Positions 1 through 13,518 of a stretch of 34,259 nt of DNA are shown piece after piece. The stretch comes from an uncultured Clostridia bacterium (GTDB taxonomy: Bacteria; Bacillota; Clostridia; Christensenellales; Borkfalkiaceae): assembly GCA_947627125.1 (NCBI GenBank), contig CANQUY010000001.1:1-34259 (forward strand). Direction: 5' to 3'. Position numbers and translations under genes: made by a program. Position 1 is the first letter of the stretch; the number at the start of each line of letters is the position of its first letter. The notes below the pieces were generated by a model, which saw only the letters and a list, made by a program, of their open reading frames with translations, was not told the origin of the DNA and did not search any database.

Positions 1-330
1 CAAGTCGTGTTAGATAAGAAGACGATTGAAACCTATCTGAAAGAAGCCGTGAAGCAAGAGCCTGAGATGATGGTTGAGTTGCTTGTCGATAAGGTTTACG
101 TCTATGGCGACCACATAGAACTGATCCTTCGATATACGGACGCGCCCCTCAAACCAAAACCGCAGAACGACGAAGAAGATAAGAACCCTGAAGGTGAAAA
201 CCTTCGGGGCTTTCTTATTTATACGGCTATGGTATGGATCGACGAGTATTGGTATAAGGGAATACAAAAAAAAGGACTTGAGCCGAAACTCAAGGGCACC
301 CGAAATATGCTTGTCTATATTGAAATTTAA
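1..330 (+). CDS. 3' fragment of a recombinase-like gene (5' part lies upstream of the window). The tail resembles the DUF4368-type C-terminus of clostridial large serine recombinases.
   Basis: Frame 1 is open from base 1 to the TAA at 328-330. The peptide KTIETYLKEAVKQEPEMMVELLVDKVYVYGDHIELILRY matches my recollection of the conserved C-terminal strand pair of that family. No domain search was possible. Confidence 0.35.
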   Translation, partial: QVVLDKKTIETYLKEAVKQEPEMMVELLVDKVYVYGDHIELILRYTDAPLKPKPQNDEEDKNPEGENLRGFLIYTAMVWIDEYWYKGIQKKGLEPKLKGTRNMLVYIEI

Positions 331-375
331 GGAGAAAAACCGTGGTACTATTGCTTCAAAGGTGTTCTAACGAGG

Positions 376-1395
376 TTAAACAAAGGCATCGCTCCCAATT
401 GTCGTCACACCATCTGGGATCATGATCTGCGTCAATTTGCGACAGTCACGAAAGGCCCCTCTTCCAATCAACCTTACACCGTTCGGGATCGTGATTTGCT
501 CTAAATTAGGACAGTCAGCAGTAAAGGTATTGTCAAAGGCACAGTCCCTAATTTCCGTCACGCCTTCCGGGATTATAACCTGTTTCAAATTGCTACAGTC
601 TTTAAAGGCTCTTTCTCCTATGGCAACAATCACGCCCTGCGGAATTTCGACAATTTCGCGGTTACCCTTGTACTGAAGCAAAACGCCGCCCTGAATGTCG
701 CATTCTGCGCAAAATGCCTTTCGTTTTTCCTCTTCCTCGCGTTTCTTTTGCGCCTCCTCTTCAGCGCGGCGAGCCTCCTCTTCGCGATCGGCGCGGATCT
801 TGTCGATCTCCTCCCGGGAATGCCCGCAACCGCAAGTTTCGTCAAAGGCAGTTGCGTCGATCGACGGATCCGCACCCTGCGGAAGAAGAACTTCCGTCAG
901 CGAATTGCACCCTTGGAATGCGCCCGCATCGATCGCCAGCAAGCTCTTCGGCATGGTAATTTCCATCAGCCGCACACAACCCTTAAAGGCGTTTGCGCCG
1001 ATATCCAATAGCCCCTCGGGCAGAATGACCCTGCGGAGCCTGTCGCACCCCTCGAATGTGCCGTCCGCGATGCCTACCACTTTCTCGGGCACCGTGACCA
1101 CGGGCGCGGTTCTGTCCTTTAATTTTGTGACCGTGTAAGTTCCGTCCGCGTGCTCATCGTATTCAAATACGGAGAGCATTTTCTTCACTTGATTGAGCGC
1201 TTCCTCCCGCTCTTCCCTTTCGATTTGGCGTTGCTTTTCAACTACCGCCGCCCGCGCAAGAGCGTCCAGGCCCTCTACGCTTCCCGAAACTTCGCCTGTG
1301 CTCTCGGTTTGGGTCCTCTCCAAGGGTGTGCCGCATTCGGGACAGATTTTCCATCCCTCGTTTTTGGTTCCGCAATTAGGGCAAAATTTGAACAT
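376..1395 (-). CDS. Cytosolic zinc-ribbon protein with BspA-type leucine-rich repeats
   Basis: 339-aa ORF. The N-terminus has a CPNCG-x10-CPECG zinc ribbon and no signal peptide or TM. Two LRR blocks (IPEGVTEIRDCAF, ITIPNGVRLIGRGAFRDC, IMIPDGVTTIGSDAF, LPEGLLDIGANAFKGC) are separated by a highly charged E/R/K helix. The ATG lies 3 nt after the stop of the upstream ATPase gene, and a GGAGGAA RBS sits inside the last ATPase codons. Confidence 0.75.
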   Translation of the reverse strand: MFKFCPNCGTKNEGWKICPECGTPLERTQTESTGEVSGSVEGLDALARAAVVEKQRQIEREEREEALNQVKKMLSVFEYDEHADGTYTVTKLKDRTAPVVTVPEKVVGIADGTFEGCDRLRRVILPEGLLDIGANAFKGCVRLMEITMPKSLLAIDAGAFQGCNSLTEVLLPQGADPSIDATAFDETCGCGHSREEIDKIRADREEEARRAEEEAQKKREEEEKRKAFCAECDIQGGVLLQYKGNREIVEIPQGVIVAIGERAFKDCSNLKQVIIPEGVTEIRDCAFDNTFTADCPNLEQITIPNGVRLIGRGAFRDCRKLTQIMIPDGVTTIGSDAFV

Positions 1396-1398
1396 ATT

Positions 1399-4300
1399 TT
1401 ATTCCTCCAAAAGTTTTTTATAAAATTCATCTGTATAGTGATAGGGGGTGAAGCATGCCACTTCGCTGTTGTTGCAAAGAAGATTTAGCTTCGGATCCAG
1501 GGGGGATCTGACCAGGGTGTTGCATAGTTCCTTTGCGGTGGTGTTTGCCGCTTCCGTCTGTTCGAGGAAGGAGAGCAGCGAGGCCGAAGAGTAATTCTCT
1601 CCCTCAACCGCAGGGTCGGGCAAGATGACCGCATCCCCGATGATGTCGATCTTGCGGCAGACGTCATTGAGATCCCTCCGAAATTCGTTGAACTGAAGCG
1701 CAAAGAACACGTTGCTGTTCTTCCCCTTGTCGAGAAGATCGGTCAAGCGGTACTCCTCGGCGGAATCCCTTTCGATCTGATCCACGCAGGTGATCATCAC
1801 GATCACGGGACAGATCGACGCCGTATCGTCTTGTTCACGTTCGGATATCAATGCCTCAATGTCGTCGAACGCTTTTTCCCGCTGTGCGGAACTGTAATAC
1901 ACAAACCGTCCGTCCGCATTCAGCATCCATGACTCTCTCTGCTCTTTGACGACCGTGGCACGGCGCGCCCAATTCGGATTTTTATTCAGATCCAGATAAA
2001 ACAACGTGCGTGAAGTTTCTTTGCGGGAAAGATACAGCACATCTTTAATGATCGCCGCCTCGATCTCCTTTGTCGAGAGATATTCTCCGCAGATACAGAG
2101 CAAGTTGTTTTTATAGCTAAACGCATACTCTATCTGCGAACCGGTGAGATATTTGCGGCCGAGCCGAACTTTGCAGACGCCGTTTTCGTCATAATCTCTC
2201 TGCGTATTCGGCGATAAAAACGGGATCTCATTTTGGCTTCCGACCGTTAGCGGTAAGATCTCGCTCGTCAGCCGCATTTTGTATTGGGGATAGCGCGTTT
2301 TAACCGCATTGATATTCCCAATGAGTTCGGCGTCCTTCCCCGCATACGCCAGCCGTGCAAGCGTGGCTTCACTTCCCTTTCCGTAGAAGAAGAGCCCGCT
2401 CATAACTTCCAATTCCATCTCCCTATGCGCAACGCTCGGGATCAAATCTCCGATCGAACTGCCTTTGAATTCAAAGCGGTGCCGAAAAAGCGTCATCGCG
2501 CTGTGGAATTCTATCGGTACGACCTGCGACGCAACGATCAAGCTGATACCGCAGGAGCGGCCCACACGGGCGATCTCCCGCAATTTCTCTTTTGCCTTAT
2601 CATCCACGATCAGGCGTTGATACTCGTCGATAATGATCAAACAGCGGGGAATTTTTTCTTCCTGCGGCACAGAGGCGTTGTACATCGTAATGTCGCCCTT
2701 GCTTCCGATCTTATTCATCCGCTTTTGCATGACGTCCGAGAGATAATCCAAAATATCGTTAGCTCCGACCACATTGTCTGACGTAATGATGGTTTTTAAG
2801 TGCGGAAGGCCGTTTTCGGAATAAATATTGAATTCGGACTTTATAATCGAAATTAAGTTGATTTCTATTTCCTGCGGAGAGTAAAGCATACACGCCGAGA
2901 GAATGATGGTGTTTAAGAGGGAACTCTTGCCTGAGCCCGTCGTTCCGCTGATCATGACGTGCGCGTCATTGGTGGAGTCAAGATCGAGGAAGAGAGGTTT
3001 GGAGCCCGCTTTCCCTATGGGGACGCTGAGAACACGGGAAAAATCTCCCCTGCGTTGCGAAGAATTAAAATCCTCTTGCGGAATGACGGAGAGAAACGGT
3101 ATATTTTCTTTACTTTCGGCGATCTGTCCTCCCAAATCGCGCAATAATTCCGACAGGTCGAGATCGGGGCTCAAAAGATCGGTATCAAAGGCGAAGTCCT
3201 CCAGCCACAGGCTCCCTTTGTCATTCATGCCGGATACGAATTTCCCACACATGCAATCGGAGGGGGAAATCTCGGGCAACTTGCGGTTCGTCCATGTGTC
3301 TTCTCCGCGGAAATCGGAATCCGAAACCAAAATGAAATAAACGCCTGCTTTTTTACCGTTTTTCAACGCTCCTTCCAATGTTTCATAGGCATGGGAATAG
3401 CCATTGGGATAGCCATTCAGCAGTACAAAAATCAGCGGTTGAATGTTGTCGGGATTGTGGGCGTTATATGCAAAAATATCCGCATCGCCGGATCTTCCGA
3501 GCAGCACGATTCGACGGGAGATCGCTTCATTCACGGAAAGCAGCGAGGCGCCGACGTCCGATTCGGACTGTTCGACCACAGAATCGTGGGCATTGAGGAA
3601 AAGTCCTCCCAAAAATTCGCTCAGTCGCCCGGCAAAAGAGATCATTTGTCCGTTCGCAGTTCGGTCGCACAATAATAACCGCTTTGCGATCGCGGGATAA
3701 CAAAAGAGAACATGCAGTAAAATTCCGCTCAAAAAATGATTCAACCCTTTGCTCTGCATGTCGTCTTTGGACACACTGACGCATAAGGCCCCGTGTGCGC
3801 GCAGATCCCATTCGGCATATACAGGGAAAGGCCCTTCCTCTGAGGGAATATCGCATCTTCCCAAAGGAATGGCGATGTTTTCCGCATAGATCGTCGGACA
3901 TTTCATCCGGTTATGGATGACGGCGGAATCCGAAGTCAGCGTATTTGCAGAGCGCAGGGCCGCCATCAGCTCGTCCGACTTTGCTTGCAACATTTTGAGA
4001 TCCTCCCGCGCTTTTTCAAGTTCCGCTCTTTTTTCTTTGAGAACGCGATCCAGATATGCGGTTTCGTAAGTTTCGCGGTGATACACAAACTGCATGATGC
4101 TTTGATGCAGATTCGCTAATTTCTCGCATTGGGAATCGAGATTGTTTTTATTCCGAAGAATATTGTATGCGTCCGCCAAAAAAGTGCGGATATTCTCCCC
4201 CAATTCTTCCGGAGAGCAGGGATCCTGACGGCGGACAAAGCGATTGCGAAAACAGAGGTAGCCGTCGTTCATGGAAAGACGGTCGGGAAACAGATAAAGA

Positions 4301-4479
4301 ATGGCTGTAATAAACTCCGCCCCATTTGTAAACTTGCTCCCTTCCGCGAAAACGCTTTCAAATGCGGCGTGCGCGGTACATTCTTCGCGTGCAATTTCTT
4401 CTTCCAATTTTTTCACACTCGATGCCGCGATTTCCGCCTCTGCTTTGTTTTGAACATATGCTTTCATAAATTCGTTCAT
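1399..4479 (-). CDS. Soluble FtsK/SpoIIIE/EssC-like P-loop ATPase with three tandem FtsK-type domains, of which only the middle one is intact
   Basis: 1026-aa ORF. Walker A is HVMISGTTGSGKSSLLNTI, Walker B is PRCLIIIDEYQRL, and the family motif is IARVGRSCGISLIVASQ. The flanking regions keep the strand pattern but lack the catalytic residues (LLLCDRTANG / LIFVLLNGYP / GVYFILVSDS and NLLCICGEY / CPVIVMITCVDQ / NVFFALQFNE). The N-terminal 190 aa or so are coiled coil. I saw no convincing TM or FHA domain. Confidence 0.75.
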   Translation of the reverse strand: MNEFMKAYVQNKAEAEIAASSVKKLEEEIAREECTAHAAFESVFAEGSKFTNGAEFITAILYLFPDRLSMNDGYLCFRNRFVRRQDPCSPEELGENIRTFLADAYNILRNKNNLDSQCEKLANLHQSIMQFVYHRETYETAYLDRVLKEKRAELEKAREDLKMLQAKSDELMAALRSANTLTSDSAVIHNRMKCPTIYAENIAIPLGRCDIPSEEGPFPVYAEWDLRAHGALCVSVSKDDMQSKGLNHFLSGILLHVLFCYPAIAKRLLLCDRTANGQMISFAGRLSEFLGGLFLNAHDSVVEQSESDVGASLLSVNEAISRRIVLLGRSGDADIFAYNAHNPDNIQPLIFVLLNGYPNGYSHAYETLEGALKNGKKAGVYFILVSDSDFRGEDTWTNRKLPEISPSDCMCGKFVSGMNDKGSLWLEDFAFDTDLLSPDLDLSELLRDLGGQIAESKENIPFLSVIPQEDFNSSQRRGDFSRVLSVPIGKAGSKPLFLDLDSTNDAHVMISGTTGSGKSSLLNTIILSACMLYSPQEIEINLISIIKSEFNIYSENGLPHLKTIITSDNVVGANDILDYLSDVMQKRMNKIGSKGDITMYNASVPQEEKIPRCLIIIDEYQRLIVDDKAKEKLREIARVGRSCGISLIVASQVVPIEFHSAMTLFRHRFEFKGSSIGDLIPSVAHREMELEVMSGLFFYGKGSEATLARLAYAGKDAELIGNINAVKTRYPQYKMRLTSEILPLTVGSQNEIPFLSPNTQRDYDENGVCKVRLGRKYLTGSQIEYAFSYKNNLLCICGEYLSTKEIEAAIIKDVLYLSRKETSRTLFYLDLNKNPNWARRATVVKEQRESWMLNADGRFVYYSSAQREKAFDDIEALISEREQDDTASICPVIVMITCVDQIERDSAEEYRLTDLLDKGKNSNVFFALQFNEFRRDLNDVCRKIDIIGDAVILPDPAVEGENYSSASLLSFLEQTEAANTTAKELCNTLVRSPLDPKLNLLCNNSEVACFTPYHYTDEFYKKLLEE

Positions 4480-4517
4480 AAGACCGCTCCGTCATAATGG
4501 TATAGCAATTCATACTA

Positions 4518-4546
4518 ATTATAGCATATATTTTTTTATTTTTCAA
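4518..4546 (-). promoter_or_regulatory. Near-consensus sigma-70-type promoter for the ATPase/LRR operon
   Basis: The minus strand reads TTGAAA (4546-4541), a 17-nt spacer, then TGc-TATAAT (4523-4518). This lies about 40 nt upstream of the ATG at 4479, and a GGAG RBS sits in between. Confidence 0.55.
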
Positions 4547-4813
4547 CACATAGAGGAGCAAACGTGAGAAATTTCTGAACAAAAACAACGATATTCAGCC
4601 CTAAATTGCGAAGGCAAGGCCGTTCTTTACGGGAAAACGGTGTTCGGATACTTAACATCCGCGTTATCGGCTTCAGTCTTATCAGAATATTTCACAACGT
4701 TCGGTTTGGGCTGATTTTTCTGTTTACGCAAATTATTGTACCAACAAATTTTCGTGAATTTTAACGGGAGATATTTCATGTTTTTATTTTTTGGGGAAAT
4801 TTTTACGAAAAGC

Positions 4814-4842
4814 TTGATATATACTTTTTGAAGTGATATGAT
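4814..4842 (+). promoter_or_regulatory. Sigma-70-type promoter for the protease gene
   Basis: TTGATA (4814-4819), a 17-nt spacer, then TGa-TATGAT (4837-4842). An AAGGA RBS at 4862-4866 precedes the ATG at 4875. Confidence 0.5.
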
Positions 4843-4874
4843 ATACATGTGATTTTTCAATAAGGATATACATC

Positions 4875-5888
4875 ATGAAAAAGCGGATTAGGATTGATTT
4901 ATTTTTATTTCTTTCGATATTATGTTCTCTATTCTTTATCGCGGGCTGTTCTCTGTTCAGCACAAATGACAACAACTATTCGGAAGCAGATCTTACTTAT
5001 AACATTACTTTTGTTTACAACAACGGCAAGGCAGATAATACTATCTCTGTAAAAAAGGGGACTACCGTACCCACGCCGACAGATCCGACAAAATCAAACT
5101 ATTTGTTCACAGGGTGGTATACAGATAAAAATTATAATAATAGATATGATTTCTCTAAGACAGTAACGGAAAGTTTTACACTCTATGCCGCATATGAGTT
5201 GGATGCGGCCAATCTCACAAATGAGATAAGTCTAAAAACGATCCATAGCATTGTTAAAATTTATAATAAAAGCTATAATTCTTTTTTGGGGATAGAAACC
5301 TCGTCGTCTACATCCCAAGGGTCGGGATTTTGTTTTCATGCTCAAGATGGATATTATTATGTTTTAACAAATTGCCATGTGGCAAAGAAAGATTCTTCCT
5401 ATAGTCATCAAAAATTTACCATTGAAGATTATTTGGGTAATAAATATACAGGGTATCTCTATCAAAATCCTCAAAAAGGCTATGACGCGATCTCCGCCTC
5501 CTATGATTTAGCTTGCTTATACTTCAAGCCAACATCTATCAATGTAATTTTGACGATCGATTCCGATCCTAACATTTCTGATGATGTTATTTCTTTGGGG
5601 GCGCCCCAAGGACAACCCAATTTTATTACGTTTGGAACCGTGAATACATATAAAACAGTTAAACTATCAAACACATCAGCTTCTTTAAGCAATGTTAACT
5701 TTGAAGTGATAGAGCATACCGCATGGGTAGACGGTGGTTCAAGCGGCGGTCCTCTTCTCAATTCTAATTTACAAGTGGTCGGGGTCAATTTCGCCGCTTC
5801 AGATAAAACACAAAGCTCCGTTAGCAGATCTTATGCAATTCCCGCAAGCAAAGTGAATGAATTTTTGAAATCATATGTCTATAATTAA
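4875..5888 (+). CDS. Lipoprotein trypsin-like (S1 family) serine protease with an N-terminal Listeria-Bacteroides repeat domain
   Basis: Signal peptide plus lipobox (LFFIAGCS). A Flg_new-type repeat is present (YNITFVYNNG...PTKSNYLFTGWYTDKN...FTLYAAY). The catalytic triad context is VLTNCHV, YDLACLYF and DGGSSGGPLL. The gene is strongly AT-rich compared with its neighbours. Confidence 0.85.
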   Translation: MKKRIRIDLFLFLSILCSLFFIAGCSLFSTNDNNYSEADLTYNITFVYNNGKADNTISVKKGTTVPTPTDPTKSNYLFTGWYTDKNYNNRYDFSKTVTESFTLYAAYELDAANLTNEISLKTIHSIVKIYNKSYNSFLGIETSSSTSQGSGFCFHAQDGYYYVLTNCHVAKKDSSYSHQKFTIEDYLGNKYTGYLYQNPQKGYDAISASYDLACLYFKPTSINVILTIDSDPNISDDVISLGAPQGQPNFITFGTVNTYKTVKLSNTSASLSNVNFEVIEHTAWVDGGSSGGPLLNSNLQVVGVNFAASDKTQSSVSRSYAIPASKVNEFLKSYVYN

Positions 5889-6669: not shown

Positions 6670-7245
6670 TTATTTTTTGGTCTGTAATTTGATCGCTTTG
6701 CCGCCGGTCAGGAGGATCATTTTCACCGCGTCGACGGAAAACTCGGGCAGTTTTACGGTCAGAGGCTTATTGAGAATGCCGCGCGCGAGTACCTTGACGT
6801 GATTCACCGAATTTCCGATGAGTTTCTTTTCCTTCAGCGATTCCAGCGTGACCGTTTCATTTGCCTCGTAGTTCTCCGAAAGCGTATCAATATTGACGAT
6901 CCCCTTCGGCTTTGACAGAACCGCTTCCTCCGCTTCTTTCACCTCTTCTATGAGGGCGACAGCGACCTCATCTGAGATCAAACTCTGTACTTCCGCCGCG
7001 GAAACCTGCTCGCGTGTTTCAAATTCTGCCGAAACCGAACGGTCTTCCTCCTTCATCTCGCAGGGAGGCTCTGCAGGCTCCTCTTTCGGTTCCGCCGCCT
7101 CCGATATTTCATGCGGCATATCGGTCTTTCGCATACGCGTCAGAAACAGATGCGCCCCTGAAAGAGTACAGATCAATATCAATGCGGCAGTGCATAGATA
7201 CTGTGCCCCAAACTCAGAAAAACTGAGCAATAATGCACTCATCAT
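6670..7245 (-). CDS. Membrane-anchored protein with a C-terminal uL15 (ribosomal protein L15)-like domain
   Basis: 191 aa. An N-terminal TM (YLCTAALILICTLSGAHLFL) is followed by RMRK, then an acidic linker. The C-terminus (IVNIDTLSENYEANETVTLESLKEKKLIGNSVNHVKVLARGILNKPLTVKLPEFSVDAVKMILLTGGKAIKL) aligns by eye with the uL15 C-terminal domain (VVNLDKL..GTEVTPELL...[33 protein letters not shown]). The ATG lies 6 nt after the stop of the giant gene, whose last codons contain AGGAG. Confidence 0.7.
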   Translation of the reverse strand: MMSALLLSFSEFGAQYLCTAALILICTLSGAHLFLTRMRKTDMPHEISEAAEPKEEPAEPPCEMKEEDRSVSAEFETREQVSAAEVQSLISDEVAVALIEEVKEAEEAVLSKPKGIVNIDTLSENYEANETVTLESLKEKKLIGNSVNHVKVLARGILNKPLTVKLPEFSVDAVKMILLTGGKAIKLQTKK

Positions 7246-7251
7246 ATGTCC

Positions 7252-10200
7252 TTACTCCTGCGAATTCTTTTTCTTGACTGCTTTCACGACCAGAGTAACG
7301 ATCAATCCCGCCGCAACGGCGCCGAGGGCGATATTGACGATCATATAGGTCAGAGCGATCTGCTCGCTCTCTTCTTTCAACGCATCATGTTTCCCTTCTA
7401 CCTGTCTTATGCCCGCCCAAAGGGCCTCATCCGCCGCCTTGTAGGCCGAATCAAGTGCGGAAATGCTCTCCGCGAGTGCGCTGTCCTGTGCCTTCAGACC
7501 CGCGATCCCGCTGTCGATGAGTGCGTCCGCCGCCTTGTAAGCGGAATCCAACGCCGAAACCTTTGCCTCGATATCCGTCCCGTTGGCCTTGAGGGCCGCC
7601 TGAAGTTCCGCCACCGCGTTGTCGAGATTGGTCTGGACCTTATCGATCGCCTTCTGCAGAGCGGAATCCGCCGCGTTCGTTGCCTTCTCGAGAGCGGCGA
7701 TCTTGGCCTCCAAATCCTCGTCCGCCGCCGTCATATCCGAGCGGAGAAGGGTGTCCGCCGCCTTGTAGGCCGAATCCAACTTTTGGACTTTTTTCTCGAT
7801 ATCCGTTTCGTTGGCGTCGATCGCCGCCTGAAGATCCTCTACCGCATTGTCGAGATTGGTTTGGACCTTATCGATCGCCTTTTGCAGGGCAGAATCGGCG
7901 TCGTTCATTGCCTGTTCGAGGGCCTCGTCCGCCGCAGCCATGTCAGAGCGGAGAAGGGTGTCCGCCGCCTGATAGGCCGAATCCAACTTTTGGACTTTAT
8001 CCTCGATATCCTTCTCGTTAGCGTCGATCGCCGCCTGAAGGTCCTCTACCGCCCTGTCGAGATTGGTTTGAACCTTATCGATCGCCTTTTGCAAAGCCGC
8101 ATCGGCGTCGTTCATTGCAGTTCCGAGCGCGGCGACGCTGTCCTCGATCGCCTTGTCTGCCGCAGCCATGTCGGAGCGGAGGACCGTATCCGCCGTTTGA
8201 TAGGCCGCATCCAACGCCGAAACTTTATCCTCGATATCCGTTTCGTTGGCCGCGATCGCCGCCTGAAGGGCCGCAACTGCGCTGTCGAGGTTGTCTTGGA
8301 CCTGCCCGATCGCAACTTGCAGGGCATGGTCGGCCGCCTTGTACGAATAGTCGAGCACCGCAAGATTTTTGGCGAATGTGTTATCCCGCTCCTGCAGGTC
8401 GGCAATGTCGCTGTGGATGATCGCGTCCGCCGCCTTGTAGGCATCGCTCATTGCCGAAAGTTCATCCTCGATCTCCGTCCTGTTTTGTCTGAGCGACGAC
8501 TGAAGATCCGCCACCGCGTCGTTGAGATTTTGTTGAACCTTGTCGATCGCGTCCTGCAACTTGTCATTGACATCGTTCATTGCAGAAGTAAGGTCGCTGA
8601 TCGCATCGTCGATCCGCTTGCCGAGCGCAGTGTCGGCGTCATTCATGTCCGAGCGGAGGGCCGCGTCCGCCTGTTGATAGGCAACGCCCATAGCCGCGAG
8701 TTTATCCTCGATATCCTGCTTGTTGTCATTGATGGTCTGTTGAAGGGCCGCCGCCGCACTGTTGAGATTTTGTTGAACCTGATCGATCGCGTCCCGAAGA
8801 TCGTTTTCGGTCTTGTTCATGGCAGAAGTAAGGTCGTTGACCGCCTGTTCGATCTCGTCGCCGAGCTGCCTGTCGGCAGTATTCATATCCGAGCGAAGGG
8901 TCGCGTCCGCGTCTTTGTAGGCAGCGTCCATTGCCGAAACTTTATCCTCGATATCCTTCTCGTTGGCGTCGATCGCCGCGCGAAGGGCCGCCGCCGCATC
9001 GTTGAGGTTTTGTTGAACCTGTTCGATCGCGGCTTGCAATCTCTGATCGGTCGCATCCAGCGTGTCCGTAAGGTCGGAAATGCTCTGCGCAAGCTCGCTG
9101 TCCCTGTTCTGCAATGCCGTGATTTGATTATTGATGATACGGTCTGCCGCCTCGTAAGCCTCTTGCAACTCTGCGAGCGCTTTGTCGAGCTCCCCTCTGT
9201 TGTCGGAAATCGACTTCTCGAGGTCCGCAACTGCCTGTTTGAGATCGGCCTGAAGTTGCTTGATTGCAGCGTCCAAATTCTCATCCACCGCTTTCAGCCT
9301 GGTTTCAAGGGCGTCTATGTTGCTCTGAAGGCCTGTGTCTGCCGCTGCGAAATCTGCACGGAGAGCCGTATCCGCAGCCAAATAATCTGCCTCCAACTGC
9401 GTCAGTGCTTTTTGGAGGTCTGCAATACTCGCCTCATCCCGACTGATCGCTTCCCGAAGGTTTTTGATATCATCTGAGAGGCGGTCATCAAGTGCATCAA
9501 TTGTTTCACCCAATGTCTTTTTAGCCGCATCCAGTTGCGATTGAAGCCCATTGATCATGCCCACCAATTCAGCTTTGAGGCCCTCGTCTGCATCCAATAA
9601 TGCCTGTTTGAGAACTTTGTCCGCCTCTATGTAGGCTTCATTCAGATCTGTAAGTCGTGACGATAATTCCCTCTGATTGCCATCTATCGACGCTTGCAAC
9701 GCCTGTGTCGCACCTTCAAGTTGTGCCTGTACCTCATCCACCGACTTTTCAAGCGTTTCGGGCGTGGGGATCCAGTAGGCATGGAGCGTGAGATCCTGCG
9801 CGGGATTGGTCCAAGGGTCCGAACTGATGGGGAGCATGTTCGCGCCGAAGATCGGATCCCCCTGTCCTTCCTCTTCCGTGAAGTAGCCGCCGAAGGTATA
9901 GCCCTTACGCACGGGAGCCATCACGCCGCTCGTCGGAAGCGCATCTCCGTACTCCACCGAAAGACTTGCACTCCCGCCGCCCGCTTCTTCGCCTGCGGAG
10001 AAACGGATGAGCGTTTTCATCTTTTCCCAGCGTGCATAGAGTTCGATCTCCCCTCCGTTCTCGGCCGTGAGATTCAGAACGCTGTCGCCGTCTTTGAATA
10101 CGACCTCTCCGCCATCCGAAGTCGCCCAGCCGATAAAGTTGTAACCCGTCTTTGTAAACCCATTGATCGCAAGAGCCTCGGGCGTTCCGTAGGAATAGGA

Positions 10201-13200
10201 ACTGCAATCCATCGAGCCGTCTGCGCCCGTCGTGTCATGATAGGAAACCGTGTATGTATTTGCCTCCCAAACCGCGTAGAGAACGGTGTCCTCCTCTTGG
10301 TCCGCACCGAATTCGATTGGATCCTCGGGGCTGTATGTCGCTTCCGCCGCGTCCTTATCTTCCGCCCAGCCTTGGAAGGTATACCCCGTGCGCTCGGGCT
10401 TCTCGGGAGAGATGTTTGCATTGGAACCCGCCGAATACGTCGTTTTATCCGTCGGGGCGTCCTCGCCGCCGTTGGCCGAATAGACCAGCGAAAGTTTGGT
10501 CCCGTCCGCCACAAAAATCGTCGTGTCGCCCTTGACGGTGAAGGTATACTGCCCGCCCTGCTCTTCCGCACGTTCGCCGTTGATATACACCCTCGGCTTT
10601 GTGCCCGTAACGGTGAAGCTGACTTCCGTGCCGAACGGGTAACTGCCCGTTAGCCCGTTGACAGTATATCCTTCCGCAACCTCGGTGGAAACATTGTATT
10701 CCCCGATTTCCCAAACGGCATAGAGAACGGTATCTCCGTCGGGCATGGAGAAGGCCTCCTCTGCATGGTAGACCGTTTCCGCGTCCGTTGCGGTCACTGC
10801 CCAGCCGAGGAACTGATACCCCTCGCGGACGGGTTCCGCCTTCGTGATCGTCACTTCCGTCCCCGCTGCGGGATAGACGGCCGCAATGGTGTTGTGGAAC
10901 TCCCCGCCGTTCGCGCTGTAAGTGAGGGACGGATTGTGTTTCCAAACGGCGTACAGCGTCACGCCCTCTGTGCCCATCGTGAAGGGATCGTCGGGGCGGT
11001 AACTCACGACGTCGGAGTTTGCCAAAAATCCCCAGCCCGCAAAGGTGTAATCATCTCTTTCGGGACCTGCTTGAATGGTCGTCCCCTCTCCCTCGTGCAG
11101 TTGCTCTGCAGCGGGAGCTCCCGAGCCCCCGTTTGCGTCATAGAAGAGCGCATGAATGGGCTTTTCCAGCCATGCCGCATACAGCACCACGACCTCATCC
11201 TGCGTGCCCGCCAAGCCGACCGCGTAGAAAGTATCGGCATAGTACATTGCCCAATTCTGCTCGTCGTACAGGTTCCAGCCGACAAAGTCGAAATTCTTGC
11301 GCGAGAGGCCGTAAGTTTCTTCTTTGGGCAATGTGAGCTCGCCGAATGTGATGCCTTCGAGATCCGCGACGAATACTCCCTCGTTGTAGAGGCGAATGGT
11401 GTAGGTGATCGCTTCCCAATGCGCATAGAGGGTGATACCGCCGACCACTGTGAGCGTTTTGCCCCCATATGCCTGACCGTCCGTGCCGTAGTATTGCACG
11501 CCGCCCGTTCCCCTATCGAAGTAGCCGAGGAACTTATACCCATACCGCTCGGGAACGGTGATGCCGGGGATCTTGCTGTCAAAGGTTGCAGAGAACGAAC
11601 TCGCATTCGTCCCGCCCATCGCATCCAAGGTAATGGTGTACGAATTTGCTTGCCAAACGGCGTAGAGGGTGTACGTACCGTTGGGATCGGACGTCAGATT
11701 CTGTACCGCTTTTTCGTTTTCATAAACGACCGCACCGACCGAGCTCGTCGCCCACCCTTGGAACGTCCAGCCGGTCAGCGTAAAGCCGTTTTTCGGCAGA
11801 GCGATCTCGCCGTCGTCATAGACGCGCGGCGTATCGGGCGTGCTCCCCTGCACATTTGAGCTTGCATTGGCGGGCTTATTTTGATTAAACTTTATTGTAT
11901 AGTGATTTGCGGTCCAATGCGCGTAGAGGGAAATCGCAGAATCAAAATCACAATTTTTTGCGCTCTTCCCCGCTGCATCATAGTATTTTATCCCTGCCCC
12001 GCCGCTTTGCGTGAAATATCCTTGGAAGGTATATCCCGTGCGCGTCGGCGTTTCGATTGCAGGCATGGCTGCGTCAAATGTCGCCGTAGTGCTCTCGGTT
12101 CCGCCCGTTCCGCTCTCTTTATAGAAAGTGACACCGCTTTGTTTTGGAACGCCCGCCGCGGTGATGACGATATCGTCCGTGATCTTGGAGCCGTAGATCG
12201 TGATCGCGCCCGTCCGAGAATTGTATGTAAAATCGTTGTTCACCGCAAGCGTACCGCCGCCCACTTTGACGGTGATGGAATTCGGCAGGTTATAGCCGTG
12301 CGCCGCCGACAAGGTTGCCGTATAGTTGGTATTGTACGTCGCCTTCCCTCCGCCCGAAAAAGTCAGATGCGTCAGACTTGAAGAAACGCCCATTTTCCTG
12401 TAATACTGCAAGGTCGGGGCTGAAGAATAGGAGCCGCCGTTGACAGTGGTGGTATTGCCCGCCTCGTCTTTGACGGACAGTCCCGAAACGTTGGAGAATT
12501 TTATTTCGCCGTTTTGGTTGACGTCGGGCAAGGTGAATGTGTAACAGACCTTGCTCTTGCCGCTTTCGGTGATGAGTTCGGCGTTATTTGAAGTAGCAAA
12601 AGTGCTTCCGTCTAACGTGATAGTCGCCGTGCCTTTGTTGGTAATGCTGCTTATCTTTTCGTTGAATTCTACGCTATATTTTACCGTGTTGCCCGCAACA
12701 GCAATGCCCTTGTTGCTGTCCACAACCAAAGATTTATCTAACGAAATCCCCGAAACTGAGGGGGCGGTTCTATCGTATAAATAACAGGAAGGGTCTGCTA
12801 TATACGGCCTTGAGGCCAAACTGCCGTAATTAGAAAACCAGACCTGTATCGAACAAGTCTGATTCGGGACAGATTTCTCGCTAAGATACACACCGAATTG
12901 TGTACGATCCCCGGTATGATACTTCTGGTAATATTCATGCTCCTCACCTATCCGTGAGTTTTGGGAATTATAAAACTCGACGCGAACGGAAATGTCATGA
13001 GTCGAAGCTGACTGTGTCCAGTTCAGAGATGAGGCGCTGATTTTAAGTTGCCCCGCATTGGCTTTCACCTTGTCCGCTTCCGAAAGCGTGAGCGTATAAT
13101 AAACGCCGCCCGTACAGTTACTTCCGCCAAGGTCTTTCCAATCGCCATTGGATTTGATGACATATTTGCCTATGTTTTTTTCGTAAACAGTATTTGCCTC

Positions 13201-13518
13201 AACGCTTGTGTTGCCGTCTGAACTTACTTTCCAACCCTGAGAAGCAATTGTGCCATCCTTAAGTGTGGGGATGAGATTGGGTGTTTGTTGTGAACCCGTC
13301 CATTCGCCGTCGGTATTCGTTCCGTTTGAGTCGCGACTCGCATACACCGTATCCACCGTTTTATTCGGCATACTAAACAAAACGCCCGTCAATAAACTTA
13401 CGAGCGCAAGGACTATGAGGAAAAGTGAAACTTTTTTCTTTTTTGTTGTCACAAAGGGACCCCCTTCCTTCTCTTTCGGAGTGATTTCCGTTATTTTTTT
13501 ACAATTCGATTGTATCAT
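7252..13518 (-). CDS. Giant (2088 aa) tail-anchored cell-surface protein with an N-terminal globular region, nine Listeria-Bacteroides repeats, a long coiled-coil stalk and a C-terminal TM
   Basis: N-terminal signal/TM is VSLFLIVLALVSLLTGVLF. Nine repeats of the type GY-x-F-x-GW/Y...LYA-x-W are encoded at roughly 9760-12100. About 800 aa of A/D/L/Q-rich heptad repeats are encoded at roughly 7370-9760. The C-terminal TM is MIVNIALGAVAAGLIVTLVV, followed by KAVKKKNSQE. Confidence 0.9.
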   Translation of the reverse strand: MIQSNCKKITEITPKEKEGGPFVTTKKKKVSLFLIVLALVSLLTGVLFSMPNKTVDTVYASRDSNGTNTDGEWTGSQQTPNLIPTLKDGTIASQGWKVSSDGNTSVEANTVYEKNIGKYVIKSNGDWKDLGGSNCTGGVYYTLTLSEADKVKANAGQLKISASSLNWTQSASTHDISVRVEFYNSQNSRIGEEHEYYQKYHTGDRTQFGVYLSEKSVPNQTCSIQVWFSNYGSLASRPYIADPSCYLYDRTAPSVSGISLDKSLVVDSNKGIAVAGNTVKYSVEFNEKISSITNKGTATITLDGSTFATSNNAELITESGKSKVCYTFTLPDVNQNGEIKFSNVSGLSVKDEAGNTTTVNGGSYSSAPTLQYYRKMGVSSSLTHLTFSGGGKATYNTNYTATLSAAHGYNLPNSITVKVGGGTLAVNNDFTYNSRTGAITIYGSKITDDIVITAAGVPKQSGVTFYKESGTGGTESTTATFDAAMPAIETPTRTGYTFQGYFTQSGGAGIKYYDAAGKSAKNCDFDSAISLYAHWTANHYTIKFNQNKPANASSNVQGSTPDTPRVYDDGEIALPKNGFTLTGWTFQGWATSSVGAVVYENEKAVQNLTSDPNGTYTLYAVWQANSYTITLDAMGGTNASSFSATFDSKIPGITVPERYGYKFLGYFDRGTGGVQYYGTDGQAYGGKTLTVVGGITLYAHWEAITYTIRLYNEGVFVADLEGITFGELTLPKEETYGLSRKNFDFVGWNLYDEQNWAMYYADTFYAVGLAGTQDEVVVLYAAWLEKPIHALFYDANGGSGAPAAEQLHEGEGTTIQAGPERDDYTFAGWGFLANSDVVSYRPDDPFTMGTEGVTLYAVWKHNPSLTYSANGGEFHNTIAAVYPAAGTEVTITKAEPVREGYQFLGWAVTATDAETVYHAEEAFSMPDGDTVLYAVWEIGEYNVSTEVAEGYTVNGLTGSYPFGTEVSFTVTGTKPRVYINGERAEEQGGQYTFTVKGDTTIFVADGTKLSLVYSANGGEDAPTDKTTYSAGSNANISPEKPERTGYTFQGWAEDKDAAEATYSPEDPIEFGADQEEDTVLYAVWEANTYTVSYHDTTGADGSMDCSSYSYGTPEALAINGFTKTGYNFIGWATSDGGEVVFKDGDSVLNLTAENGGEIELYARWEKMKTLIRFSAGEEAGGGSASLSVEYGDALPTSGVMAPVRKGYTFGGYFTEEEGQGDPIFGANMLPISSDPWTNPAQDLTLHAYWIPTPETLEKSVDEVQAQLEGATQALQASIDGNQRELSSRLTDLNEAYIEADKVLKQALLDADEGLKAELVGMINGLQSQLDAAKKTLGETIDALDDRLSDDIKNLREAISRDEASIADLQKALTQLEADYLAADTALRADFAAADTGLQSNIDALETRLKAVDENLDAAIKQLQADLKQAVADLEKSISDNRGELDKALAELQEAYEAADRIINNQITALQNRDSELAQSISDLTDTLDATDQRLQAAIEQVQQNLNDAAAALRAAIDANEKDIEDKVSAMDAAYKDADATLRSDMNTADRQLGDEIEQAVNDLTSAMNKTENDLRDAIDQVQQNLNSAAAALQQTINDNKQDIEDKLAAMGVAYQQADAALRSDMNDADTALGKRIDDAISDLTSAMNDVNDKLQDAIDKVQQNLNDAVADLQSSLRQNRTEIEDELSAMSDAYKAADAIIHSDIADLQERDNTFAKNLAVLDYSYKAADHALQVAIGQVQDNLDSAVAALQAAIAANETDIEDKVSALDAAYQTADTVLRSDMAAADKAIEDSVAALGTAMNDADAALQKAIDKVQTNLDRAVEDLQAAIDANEKDIEDKVQKLDSAYQAADTLLRSDMAAADEALEQAMNDADSALQKAIDKVQTNLDNAVEDLQAAIDANETDIEKKVQKLDSAYKAADTLLRSDMTAADEDLEAKIAALEKATNAADSALQKAIDKVQTNLDNAVAELQAALKANGTDIEAKVSALDSAYKAADALIDSGIAGLKAQDSALAESISALDSAYKAADEALWAGIRQVEGKHDALKEESEQIALTYMIVNIALGAVAAGLIVTLVVKAVKKKNSQE
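7370..9760 (-). repeat. In-frame tandem coding repeats (about 205-230 nt period, about 11 units) encoding the coiled-coil stalk
   Basis: The peptide unit ALQKAIDKVQTNLDxAVEDLQAAIDANExDIExKVQKLDSAYxAADTLLRSDMxAAD recurs. Near-identical DNA blocks occur, for example GTCGAGATTGGT(C/T)TGGACCTTATCGATCGCCTT at 7620, 7849 and 8056. Confidence 0.85.

What the first reader, a model, noticed from the sequence alone, without database searches (positions are those of the whole stretch)
376..4546. Two-gene operon of a soluble triple-FtsK-domain (EssC-like) ATPase and a cytosolic zinc-ribbon LRR protein, a candidate conflict or defence module
The 1026-aa protein has three tandem FtsK/SpoIIIE-type P-loop domains, and only the central one keeps its Walker A and B motifs. 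EssC/EccC secretion ATPases share that layout. This protein, however, lacks the FHA domains and TM helices of EssC, and no other T7SS or conjugation gene is nearby. It is translationally coupled to the next gene: the stop and start are 3 nt apart, and the RBS lies inside the ATPase coding sequence. The partner protein has a zinc ribbon, a charged coiled coil and BspA-type LRRs but no export signal. BspA-type LRRs are normally extracellular, so an intracellular copy next to an oligomeric NTPase recalls NTPase-plus-LRR sensor logic (as in NLRs), here split over two polypeptides. The operon has its own near-consensus promoter. It sits between a recombinase-bearing element and an AT-rich island, which is typical accessory-genome context.
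Basis: partly seen in the sequence, partly recalled or inferred. Interest (0 to 1): 0.6.

Follow-up and report, generated by a model that had tools for sequence, protein, structure and literature searches.

The report
Membrane-less EssC-like ATPase with zinc-ribbon LRR partner
The two genes are real and truly linked, but they are the front end of a larger conserved gene cluster of gut Clostridia that joins a membrane-anchor-less relative of the type VII secretion ATPase to families of signal-less zinc-ribbon LRR proteins and a WXG100 module, a combination that has not been described and whose job (export or intracellular sensing) is still open.

Summary
Observation confirmed. ORF 1399-4479(-) encodes a soluble 1026-aa protein: an N-terminal helical region, then three EccC/EssC-like P-loop domains. 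Only the middle domain keeps its Walker A and B motifs. ORF 376-1395(-) follows after 3 nt and encodes a signal-less zinc-ribbon + BspA-LRR protein.

New here:
1. The pairing is conserved. In six related loci from gut Clostridia MAGs, arrays of 2-12 zinc-ribbon/LRR paralogues flank the ATPase, and these genes are almost confined to its contig.
2. All six loci end in a five-gene module: small helical proteins, a WXG100 protein, and a ~340-aa hairpin protein. The window's genome carries that module on another short contig. "No T7SS gene nearby" is therefore an effect of the contig ending 375 nt after the LRR gene.
3. No cluster protein has a predicted membrane segment, and no EssB or YukD was found.
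4. The LRR gene here lacks its C-terminal cap. It stops 46 nt from a converging ORF that resembles a serine-recombinase tail.
5. The ATPase clade was not found in 36 same-genus genomes or 400 same-order genomes.

The ATPase architecture itself was described in 2024, beside CoCoNuT defence operons. The LRR arrays and the stand-alone cluster appear new. Export and intracellular sensing cannot yet be told apart. The scan had not reported this cluster on other DNA.

The parts
4518..4546 (-). Sigma-70-type promoter-like site: TTGAAA, 17-nt spacer, TG-extended TATAAT, about 40 nt upstream of the ATPase start codon
   Evidence: 11 of 12 matches with the TG extension, the best site in 1-5000. Sequence read.
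1399..4479 (-). Soluble EssC/EccC-like ATPase, 1026 aa (P0001)
3910..4479 (-). N-terminal helical / coiled-coil region (aa 1-190). It takes the place of the FHA and TM segments of EssC and is poorly conserved.
   Evidence: AF2 secondary structure. There are few invariant columns before aa 224. No TM.
3112..3909 (-). Domain D1 (aa ~191-456): P-loop fold without Walker A or B
   Evidence: Aligns to EccC D1 within 4nh0. No GxxGxGK[ST] or hhhhDE motif. Its residues are conserved in the clade.
2260..3111 (-). Domain D2 (aa ~457-740): the only catalytically equipped FtsK-type domain. Walker A GTTGSGKS is at 2923-2946 and Walker B CLIIIDE at 2623-2643.
   Evidence: Pfam FtsK_SpoIIIE 489-652, E 3.5e-19. 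Motifs. FtsK motor match Z 30.6, rmsd 2.4 A.
1402..2259 (-). Domain D3 (aa ~741-1026): degenerate P-loop (GEYLSTKE), collinear with the substrate-receptor domain D3 of EccC/EssC
   Evidence: 4n1a and 4lya alignments run to residue 1016/1017. G798, Y800, T803 and K804 are invariant in the clade.
1404..1408 (-). GGAGG ribosome-binding site for the LRR gene, inside the last ATPase codons. The stop TAA (1399-1401) is followed by AAT and then ATG.
376..1395 (-). Zinc-ribbon + BspA-type LRR protein, 339 aa (P0002), with no signal peptide or TM. It lacks the C-terminal cap.
1333..1383 (-). N-terminal C4 zinc ribbon (CPNC...CPEC, aa 5-21)
   Evidence: Pfam Zn_ribbon_3 and Zn_Ribbon_1, just under the cut-off. 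The same N-terminal motif heads the paralogues in relatives.
379..1143 (-). Two LRR_5 blocks (aa ~85-185 and ~232-339), each preceded by a highly charged helix (aa 43-75 and 195-228)
   Evidence: Pfam LRR_5, 135 bits, two stretches. Sequence.
277..294 (-). Terminator-like hairpin followed by a T-run, about 80 nt after the LRR stop codon
   Evidence: This is a consensus scan only.
1..330 (+). 5'-open converging ORF (109 aa). It resembles the C-terminal tail of ~500-aa large serine recombinases and ends 46 nt from the LRR stop codon.
   Evidence: matches to the C-termini of 490-510-aa frames; one such frame has Resolvase, Recombinase and Zn_ribbon_recom domains. The fragment itself has no Pfam hit.

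Best explanation
The pair is the promoter-proximal part of a larger conserved cluster that relates to type VII secretion but lacks a membrane anchor.

**Cluster layout.** It contains a soluble EssC/EccC-like ATPase, one to a dozen signal-less proteins with an N-terminal zinc ribbon and BspA-type LRRs, and a five-gene module. The module is a small helical protein, a WXG100 protein, another small helical protein, a ~340-aa long-hairpin protein with a conserved small C-terminal domain, and a ~96-aa protein.

**Shown.** The architecture, the conserved linkage, and the absence of predicted membrane segments or signal peptides in all cluster proteins.

**Inferred mechanism.**
- The ATPase forms an FtsK-type hexamer driven only by D2.
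- The degenerate but conserved D1 and D3 domains and the N-terminal helical region act as docking and regulatory surfaces. D3 is the substrate receptor in EccC.
- The constant N-terminal zinc ribbon is the common handle by which interchangeable LRR proteins are presented to the motor.
- WXG100-type helical proteins gate or accompany the motor, as EsxB does for EccC.

**Committed reading of the output.** These are client-handling ATPases that deliver the LRR proteins and hairpin proteins to the cell surface by a Sec-independent route, using a membrane conduit encoded elsewhere. I hold this only slightly above the intracellular-sensor reading.

**State in this genome.** The cluster is a horizontally acquired copy and is damaged. 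The LRR gene has lost its C-terminal cap, next to a fragment resembling a serine-recombinase tail. The WXG100 module lies on a separate short contig.
For: **Architecture.**
- The AF2 model has pLDDT 86.9 and three NBDs collinear with EccC D1-D3 up to the C-terminus.
- It has a single Walker A and B pair.
- The best NCBIfam hits are EssC and EccC models.

**Linkage to LRR genes.**
- Six loci with full-length relatives (33-36% identity to P0001, 41-76% among themselves apart from one 99% pair) all have an LRR_5 gene directly after the ATPase and 2-12 zinc-ribbon/LRR paralogues around it.
- The zinc-ribbon start motif falls on the ATPase contig in 18 of 25 genome-wide hits, with 0 control hits.
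- In this genome P0002 is the only complete zinc-ribbon/LRR gene found. Most of the other LRR_5 genes (at least 11) carry a signal peptide with a lipoprotein-type cysteine.
- L127 and L128 show a separate link between an ATPase, two small helical proteins and a TPR-LRR_5 protein.

**Link to type VII secretion.**
- In 5 of 5 relatives' genomes, the only WXG100 gene above the cut-off lies 6-12 kb downstream of the ATPase on the same strand.
- The full five-gene module is present in all six loci.
- It is also on contig C160 of this genome, just after an LRR paralogue.
- No EssC-sized second ATPase was detected.
- Among 73 loci of the wider soluble, single-Walker-A family, 28-38 have WXG100-type neighbours.

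**Towards export.**
- Most of this genome's other LRR_5 proteins carry signal peptides with a lipoprotein-type cysteine, which marks them as exported.
- Some array members carry DUF6273 C-terminal domains.
- A constant N-terminus with a variable remainder is the usual layout of secreted polymorphic families (established knowledge, not tested here).
Against: - No cluster protein has a predicted TM helix or signal peptide. No conserved membrane protein lies in the six loci.
- EssB/YukC and YukD were not found in this genome or in five relatives' genomes.
- All published T7SS subtypes a-j have membrane-bound ATPases (PMC11217815).
- D1, the essential motor domain of EccC/EssC, is dead here.
- A zinc-bound N-terminal domain is typical of cytoplasmic proteins.
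- Other members of the soluble clade sit in vWA/PP2C/kinase and CoCoNuT defence operons.
- LRR_5 also occurs fused to the intracellular domains TIR, SEFIR, BRCT and Ank.
- The hairpin protein m4 gave no significant PDB match, and its LXG hit is weak (E 0.017).
- Physical contiguity of C1 and C160 is not shown.
Confidence: 0.4

Rival explanations
1. An intracellular conflict or defence system built on a secretion-ATPase chassis. The zinc-ribbon/LRR paralogues are cytoplasmic sensors for invader proteins. They dock through the zinc ribbon onto the soluble hexameric ATPase. The WXG100 and hairpin proteins are regulators or effectors released or activated on ATP hydrolysis.
For: - Every component is predicted soluble.
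- The same ATPase architecture (coiled coil, only D2 active, WXG100 pair) was described inside Type III-A CoCoNuT defence operons between vWA genes. Those authors judged that classical secretion was unlikely because TM helices are absent (PMC11090510).
- My survey recovers those vWA/PP2C/kinase contexts.
- Relatives of LRR_5 proteins include TIR and SEFIR fusions.
- The cluster is accessory: 0 of 36 same-genus genomes and 0 of 400 same-order genomes. It lies next to a recombinase-like fragment and an AT-rich island.
- Earlier scan notes (not checked here) report signal-less zinc-ribbon LRR_5 genes beside AAA+/MoxR/vWA modules in other gut bacteria.
Against: - No recognisable effector (nuclease, TIR, protease or pore former) is in the cluster.
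- PADLOC matches only the P-loop, locally.
- No known defence genes are adjacent in the window.
- In four relatives the cluster is flanked by the same apparently housekeeping-type genes, a serine dehydratase and a ClpP/TepA-like gene by its sequence. That suggests a stable chromosomal locus, not a defence hotspot.
- No relatives were found in phage or plasmid collections.
Confidence: 0.33
2. A cytoplasmic assembly or chaperone ATPase for a helical-protein complex with no role in conflict or export. Alternatively, a decaying remnant in this genome whose two genes are no longer functional.
For: - The LRR gene is truncated compared with its 85%- and 66%-identical orthologues.
- The rest of the cluster is not on this contig.
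- m4 and m5 are conserved rather than polymorphic. This fits structural core parts better than a toxin-immunity pair.
Against: - The ATPase ORF is intact, with all clade-invariant residues and a near-consensus promoter.
- Homologues at 99%, 82% and 71% identity exist elsewhere, so the gene is under selection.
- Arrays of diversified paralogues argue for a recognition or interaction function.
Confidence: 0.15
3. A DNA-handling FtsK/TcpA-like translocase of a mobile element, used for conjugation or segregation, with the LRR gene as unrelated cargo.
For: - D2 matches FtsK motor domains (Z ~30) and the TcpA coupling protein (Z ~27) as well as it matches EccC domains.
- A fragment resembling a serine-recombinase tail is adjacent.
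Against: - The three-domain layout with two dead domains is specific to EccC/EssC.
- There is no FtsK gamma domain, no TM, and no relaxase or other conjugation gene in the window or in relatives.
- The LRR linkage is conserved in 7 of 7 loci.
- No close relatives are on plasmids or phages.
Confidence: 0.04

Closest known systems
Soluble EssC-like ATPases of extended Type III-A CoCoNuT operons (Bell, Makarova, Wolf, Koonin, eLife 2024; PMC11090510)
   Same: Both have an N-terminal coiled coil in place of FHA domains and TM helices. Both have three FtsK-type domains with only the central one predicted active. Both are accompanied by WXG100-type small proteins (one with and one without the WxG motif in the paper). 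My survey places the vWA/PP2C/kinase-linked loci in the same wider family.
   Different: Here there are no vWA genes, no McrBC/CoCoNuT core, no coiled-coil nuclease and no DNA-mimic protein. Instead the cluster stands alone, with arrays of zinc-ribbon/BspA-LRR proteins and a conserved five-gene module. Identity to those loci is only about 25-30% over D1-D2.
EssC/EccC (TsxC) ATPases of type VII secretion systems T7SSa-j
   Same: The three-NBD cassette is collinear up to the C-terminal D3 substrate-receptor domain: 4nh0, 4n1a (Z 30) and 4lya (Z 28.7). The best NCBIfam hits are these families. WXG100 and LXG-like genes lie in the cluster.
   Different: There are no TM helices, no FHA and no DUF/stalk region. 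D1 is dead and D2 is active, the opposite of EccC. The score is 83 bits against a 778-bit equivalog cut-off. EssB, YukD and other membrane parts were not found.
LXG effector cassettes of T7SSb (small Lap/WXG100-like partners, an LXG protein, an immunity protein)
   Same: The gene order and sizes of m1-m5 match: ~90, 95 (WXG100), 106, ~340 (a long helical hairpin followed by a C-terminal domain) and ~96 aa.
   Different: m4 is not polymorphic; its C-terminal domain is conserved across all seven copies. The LXG Pfam hit is weak (E 0.017). There is no PDB match and no toxin domain was recognised.
NLR/STAND-type NTPase + LRR immune sensors
   Same: An oligomeric P-loop NTPase is genetically tied to diversified LRR proteins that lack export signals.
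   Different: The NTPase belongs to the FtsK/HerA class, not STAND. The sensor and the NTPase are separate polypeptides. Many LRR paralogues share one NTPase. No effector domain was identified.
FtsK/SpoIIIE DNA translocases and the TcpA-type coupling protein
   Same: The fold and motifs of D2 match (Z 27-31).
   Different: It has no 4TM or gamma domain and carries two extra degenerate domains. The housekeeping FtsK of the genus is a different, 4-TM protein.

Membership tests
EssC/EccC type VII secretion ATPase | Three tandem FtsK/SpoIIIE-type nucleotide-binding domains ending at the C-terminus | tested here: met
   The AF2 model aligned to 4nh0 (737 residues, model 189-1017) and to 4n1a (Z 30, 497 residues).
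EssC/EccC type VII secretion ATPase | N-terminal transmembrane helices that anchor the ATPase in the membrane (plus FHA domains in T7SSb) | tested here: not met
   No segment has a Kyte-Doolittle value of 1.8 or more. The N-terminus is a soluble helical region. No FHA hit.
EssC/EccC type VII secretion ATPase | A catalytically competent first domain (D1) | tested here: not met
   D1 (aa ~191-456) has no Walker A or B. The only motifs are in D2.
EssC/EccC type VII secretion ATPase | A score above the NCBIfam equivalog cut-off (TIGR03928 or TIGR03924) | tested here: not met
   82.8 bits against 778.4, and 73.6 against 509.
EssC/EccC type VII secretion ATPase | A WXG100 gene in the same cluster | tested here: inconclusive
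   Met in 6 of 6 related loci. In this genome the WXG100 pair is on contig C160 after an LRR paralogue, and contiguity with the window is not shown.
EssC/EccC type VII secretion ATPase | Membrane partners (EssB/YukC, EsaA, EssA) and the ubiquitin-like YukD/EsaB | tested here: not met
   PF10140 gave no match in this genome or in G187-G191. PF08817 gave no match in G187-G191. EsaA and EssA were not searched. The MAGs are incomplete.
CoCoNuT-associated soluble EssC-like ATPase (PMC11090510) | An N-terminal coiled coil, three ATPase domains with only D2 active, and no TM | tested here: met
   compared with the text read.
CoCoNuT-associated soluble EssC-like ATPase (PMC11090510) | A position between vWA genes of a Type III-A CoCoNuT (McrBC-type) operon, with a coiled-coil nuclease | tested here: not met
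   No vWA, McrB/C or nuclease was found in the window or in L019-L024. Such contexts occur only in distant relatives.
BspA-type LRR (Pfam LRR_5) proteins | LRR_5 repeats above the Pfam gathering score | tested here: met
   135 bits against 27.7, in two stretches.
BspA-type LRR (Pfam LRR_5) proteins | An export signal or surface anchor, as in the classical BspA-like surface proteins | tested here: not met
   P0002 and 40 paralogues in relatives have no signal peptide or TM. Most of this genome's other LRR_5 genes do carry signal peptides with a lipoprotein-type cysteine.
Known anti-phage defence systems (PADLOC-DB 2.0) | A full-length match to a system component, with its partner genes | tested here: not met
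   Only local P-loop matches to SspH, mad8 and HerA. The LRR and module proteins have no hits, apart from one marginal LmuB hit (E 0.00087) for m4.
STAND/NLR NTPases | A NACHT or NB-ARC type STAND NTPase domain | tested here: not met
   Only sub-threshold nSTAND hits on the Walker A region (20.6 bits against 27.2). The fold is FtsK/HerA class.

The most novel reading that the evidence does not exclude
The cluster is a new kind of bacterial immune or recognition machine. In it, a secretion-type (EssC-like) hexameric ATPase has lost its membrane anchor and serves as the common hub for a battery of interchangeable cytoplasmic LRR sensors. Each sensor plugs in through an N-terminal zinc ribbon, and WXG100/hairpin proteins are the output. 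This would be a split, many-sensors-one-motor counterpart of NLR networks. An equally novel alternative is that the zinc ribbon is a previously unknown N-terminal targeting domain for a Sec-independent, membrane-partner-unknown export route for LRR adhesins.
Probability: 0.3. Interest if true: 0.8.

Novelty: new variant of a known kind. Interest (0 to 1): 0.58.

Why it matters
WXG100 proteins and EssC-type ATPases are treated as hallmarks of type VII secretion, and every catalogued subtype (a-j) has a membrane-bound ATPase. Here a whole conserved cluster in gut Clostridia has the ATPase and WXG100 proteins but no predicted membrane component. Its dominant cargo or partner genes are signal-less zinc-ribbon LRR proteins, a protein type that recurs in gut-bacterial genomes without an assigned role.

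Two outcomes are possible, and both are new:
- If the LRR proteins are exported, this defines a new targeting domain and route for surface LRR proteins in abundant gut commensals.
- If they stay inside, it is a new NTPase-LRR recognition system and gives a function to the "soluble EssC" clade noted next to CoCoNuT defence operons.

The cluster is compact, made only of soluble proteins, and has clear point-mutant controls, so the question can be tested directly.

Tried and rejected
- I could not read the contexts of the closest ATPase homologues (82% and 71% identity, short Logan contigs) or of the 85%-identical LRR orthologue P0167, which sits on a 34.8-kb contig.
- **P0017 is not a genus-conserved paralogue.** I first took the FtsK-domain hits in 36 same-genus genomes for P0017-like paralogues. 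Inspection showed they are the housekeeping 4-TM FtsK. Both soluble ATPases are therefore accessory, and the housekeeping FtsK is missing from this 92%-complete MAG.
- **Alignment A1** was too divergent for the search for related loci. A2 worked.
- **Mobile-element collections.** Searches of phages, plasmids and IMG/VR found no relatives beyond the P-loop domain.
- **The left-edge ORF** has no Pfam or NCBIfam hit and no phage or plasmid match. Only weak similarity to serine-recombinase C-termini was found.
- **Protein m4.** Foldseek against the PDB gave only generic helical hairpins (E 0.02 or worse). The ESM Atlas gave nothing for its C-terminal domain. The "LXG toxin" reading is therefore not established, and the conserved C-terminus argues against a polymorphic toxin.
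- **The missing 3' end of P0002.** C160's LRR fragment is not that end. It is only 60% identical to the orthologue's C-terminus, against 85% for P0002 itself, and shares no nucleotide overlap with the window.
- **Rfam** found nothing in the window.
- **Complex prediction.** I considered folding an ATPase-LRR read-through fusion as a stand-in for a complex. I dropped the idea because the fusion exceeds the size limit and no paired alignment exists.

Full report
**1. What is in the window**

The window is the whole of contig C1 of a fragmented MAG. The assembly has 206 contigs, 1.77 Mb, 92% completeness and GC 0.55.

- Two minus-strand ORFs fill the finding: 1399..4479 (P0001, 1026 aa) and 376..1395 (P0002, 339 aa).
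- They are separated by TAA-AAT-ATG. GGAGG lies 8 nt before the ATG, inside the last ATPase codons.
- The best promoter-like site of the first 5 kb lies about 40 nt upstream of the ATPase start: TTGAAA-17-TG-TATAAT, 11 of 12 matches, at 4546-4518.
- GC is about 0.50 over the operon and drops to 0.37-0.39 at 4-6 kb, where a divergent trypsin-like gene lies.

**2. The ATPase**

- Pfam sees one FtsK_SpoIIIE domain (489-652, E 3.5e-19). NCBIfam's best hits are EssC and EccC models, far below their cut-offs.
- A 31-sequence alignment gave an AF2 model with pLDDT 86.9. It has a helical N-terminal region (1-~190) and three alpha/beta P-loop domains.
- Foldseek's top hit is the three-ATPase cytoplasmic part of T. 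curvata EccC (4nh0, E 2e-30).
- VIA-align places model 189-1017 on EccC 428-1315 (737 residues).
- It places model 457-1017 on EccC D2-D3 (4n1a, Z 30, rmsd 3.6 A, 497 residues) and on Geobacillus EssC D2-D3 (4lya, Z 28.7).
- There is one Walker A (GTTGSGKS, 512) and one Walker B (CLIIIDE, 613), both in the middle domain.
- D1 has neither motif. D3 has a degenerate but clade-invariant GxYxxTKE.
- There is no TM segment and no FHA domain.

**3. The partner**

P0002 has a C4 zinc ribbon at the extreme N-terminus, two LRR_5 (BspA-type) blocks (135 bits), and a highly charged helix before each block. It has no signal peptide or TM.

A new point is that its orthologues P0167 (85% identical, 364 aa) and P0168 (66%, 419 aa) continue into a C-terminal cap, LTIxCxAxSKPxxWxxxWNPxNRPVxWGCK. 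P0002 lacks this cap and stops at ...IGSDAFV in mid-repeat.

The stop lies 46 nt from the end of a converging, 5'-open ORF (1-330). That ORF's relatives are the C-terminal tails of ~500-aa frames, and one of these has Resolvase, Recombinase and Zn_ribbon_recom domains. This agrees with a separate first-reader note on this window. The copy here is probably damaged by a serine-recombinase element. The evidence for the recombinase is weak.

**4. Is the pairing conserved?**

Close homologues of the ATPase are rare. An exhaustive profile search found about 100 representative clusters at E < 1e-30, including full-length relatives at 39-53% identity.

A scan of species-representative genomes gave six loci (L019-L024) with full-length relatives. 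All come from gut Clostridia/Eubacteriales MAGs from faeces, water-deer rectum and goat caecum. They are 33-36% identical to P0001 and 41-76% identical among themselves, apart from one near-identical pair.

- In all six, an LRR_5 gene directly follows the ATPase. The spacing is a 4-nt or 11-nt overlap, or an 11-nt gap, in three of them.
- In all six, the ATPase is embedded in arrays of 2-12 paralogous genes. Most of these begin MKxCPxC... (one or two zinc ribbons) and continue into LRR_5, some with a C-terminal DUF6273. None has a predicted TM helix or signal peptide.
- A DNA pattern for the zinc-ribbon start gives 25 hits in five of these genomes, 18 of them on the ATPase contig, with 0 control hits.
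- In the window's genome, P0002 is the only complete zinc-ribbon/LRR gene found. Most of the other LRR_5 genes (at least 11) carry a signal peptide with a lipoprotein-type cysteine.
- A more distant ATPase (L127/L128) is followed by two small helical proteins and a TPR-LRR_5 protein.

The functional link between the ATPase and signal-less LRR proteins is well supported.

**5. The rest of the cluster**

All six loci end with the same five genes:
- m1 (~90 aa);
- m2 (95 aa; Pfam WXG100, E 6e-8);
- m3 (106 aa);
- m4 (~340 aa);
- m5 (~96 aa).

In five of five genomes tested, the only WXG100 gene above the cut-off is this one. It lies 6-12 kb downstream of the ATPase on the same strand.

The AF2 model of m4 (pLDDT 82) is a ~200-residue helical hairpin, a proline-rich loop, a disordered linker and a small alpha/beta C-terminal domain. 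That domain's motif is conserved in all seven copies. The Pfam LXG hit is weak (E 0.017), and no PDB or Atlas match was found.

The window's genome has the same module on contig C160: a WXG100 pair, m4 (E 3e-9) and m5 (E 2e-10). C160 begins inside an LRR paralogue that has an intact C-cap.

"No T7SS gene nearby" therefore reflects the contig ending 375 nt after P0002.

**6. What is missing**

- No cluster protein has a predicted membrane segment.
- YukC/EssB and YukD were not found in this genome or in the five relatives' genomes.
- No EssC-sized second ATPase was detected.
- The FtsK-domain proteins of 36 same-genus genomes are ordinary 4-TM FtsK proteins.
- A query specific to D3 found nothing in 400 genomes of the same order.
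- No relatives are on plasmids, phages or IMG/VR contigs.
- PADLOC gives only local P-loop similarity to SspH, mad8 and HerA.

The genome also carries a second soluble paralogue, P0017 on C16. It is 28% identical over D1-D2 and sits with small helical proteins and multi-TM proteins downstream.

**7. Literature**

- Bell et al. 2024 (PMC11090510) describe exactly this ATPase architecture in extended Type III-A CoCoNuT operons. It has an N-terminal coiled coil instead of FHA and TM, three ATPase domains with only D2 active, and two WXG100 genes. The authors note that missing TM helices make a classical secretion mechanism unlikely.
- Garrett et al. 2024 (PMC11217815) catalogue T7SSa-j, all with membrane-bound ATPases.
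- My survey of 101 loci of the wider family agrees with both papers. Nearly every one of these ATPases has exactly one strict Walker A motif; a few have none. WXG100-type genes are the commonest neighbours, in 28-38 of 73 soluble loci. One subset sits with vWA, PP2C and kinase genes.
- I found no description of the link to zinc-ribbon/LRR arrays or of the stand-alone cluster.

**8. Interpretation**

*Shown:* the architecture, the conserved cluster, and the soluble nature of all its parts.

*Inferred:* the ATPase is a hexameric motor powered by D2 alone. D1, D3 and the N-terminal helices are client or regulator surfaces. The constant zinc ribbon is the handle of interchangeable LRR proteins, and WXG100-type proteins act as gates or co-clients.

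Two readings of the output remain close:
- **Export** (0.40) is favoured by the EssC/WXG100/LXG-like gene set, the usual surface location of LRR_5 proteins in this genome, and the layout of a constant N-terminus with a variable remainder.
- **Intracellular sensing or defence** (0.33) is favoured by the total lack of membrane parts, the zinc ribbon, the dead D1, the defence-operon context of sister clades, and TIR/SEFIR-LRR_5 fusions among homologues.

**9. Verdict**

This is a new variant of a recently noted kind (the soluble EssC-like ATPase with WXG100) with a new partner class, and it is moderately to highly interesting.

In this genome the cluster is horizontally acquired, split over several contigs, and probably damaged at the LRR gene.

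Noticed in passing
window 331-399 and 1-330: P0002 stops in mid-repeat and lacks the C-terminal cap carried by its 85%- and 66%-identical orthologues. The stop lies 46 nt from the end of a converging ORF that resembles the tail of large serine recombinases. Window 313-399 also recurs at the ends of contigs C137 (93% identity) and C80 (97%).
   Followed up: partly
G000 contig C16 (L017) 8844-12470(-) and downstream to about 1500: A second soluble EssC-like ATPase (P0017, 1208 aa, one Walker A). It is followed by three ~90-105-aa proteins, two paralogous coiled-coil proteins (468 and 399 aa), a 97-aa protein, a 580-aa protein with 3 TM and a weak Hint hit, and a 6-TM protein. This may be a sister system that does have membrane parts.
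   Followed up: partly
whole genome G000: The only two FtsK_SpoIIIE hits are the soluble ATPases. The 4-TM housekeeping FtsK found in same-genus genomes is missing from this 92%-complete assembly.
   Followed up: partly
window 4875-5888(+): An AT-rich gene (GC ~0.38) for a trypsin-like protease with a Listeria-Bacteroides repeat. PADLOC matches its protease part to RT-Protease_XI models (E 1.8e-13).
   Followed up: no
window 6670-7245(-): A 191-aa ORF whose C-terminal 70 residues match ribosomal protein L15/L27A (Pfam E 8e-13), behind an unexplained 115-residue N-terminal extension.
   Followed up: no
window 7252-13518(-), 19655-24151(-), 24219-28223(-): Three giant predicted surface proteins of 2088, 1498 and 1334 aa. 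Respectively they carry Listeria-Bacteroides repeats plus long coiled coils, GH3 domains in permuted order, and Big_3 repeats.
   Followed up: no
L019 5130-6401 and L020 3840-5120; L019 18055-18759, L137-L139: In relatives, a serine dehydratase alpha-chain gene sits inside the LRR array. A conserved ClpP/TepA-like gene converges on the end of the WXG100 module. This points to a fixed chromosomal site in that lineage.
   Followed up: partly
L019 657-2051 and other array members (c46/c50 type): A subset of array proteins combine a double zinc ribbon, LRR_5 and a C-terminal DUF6273 domain (E 3e-31) that ends in GVRPAxWI.
   Followed up: no
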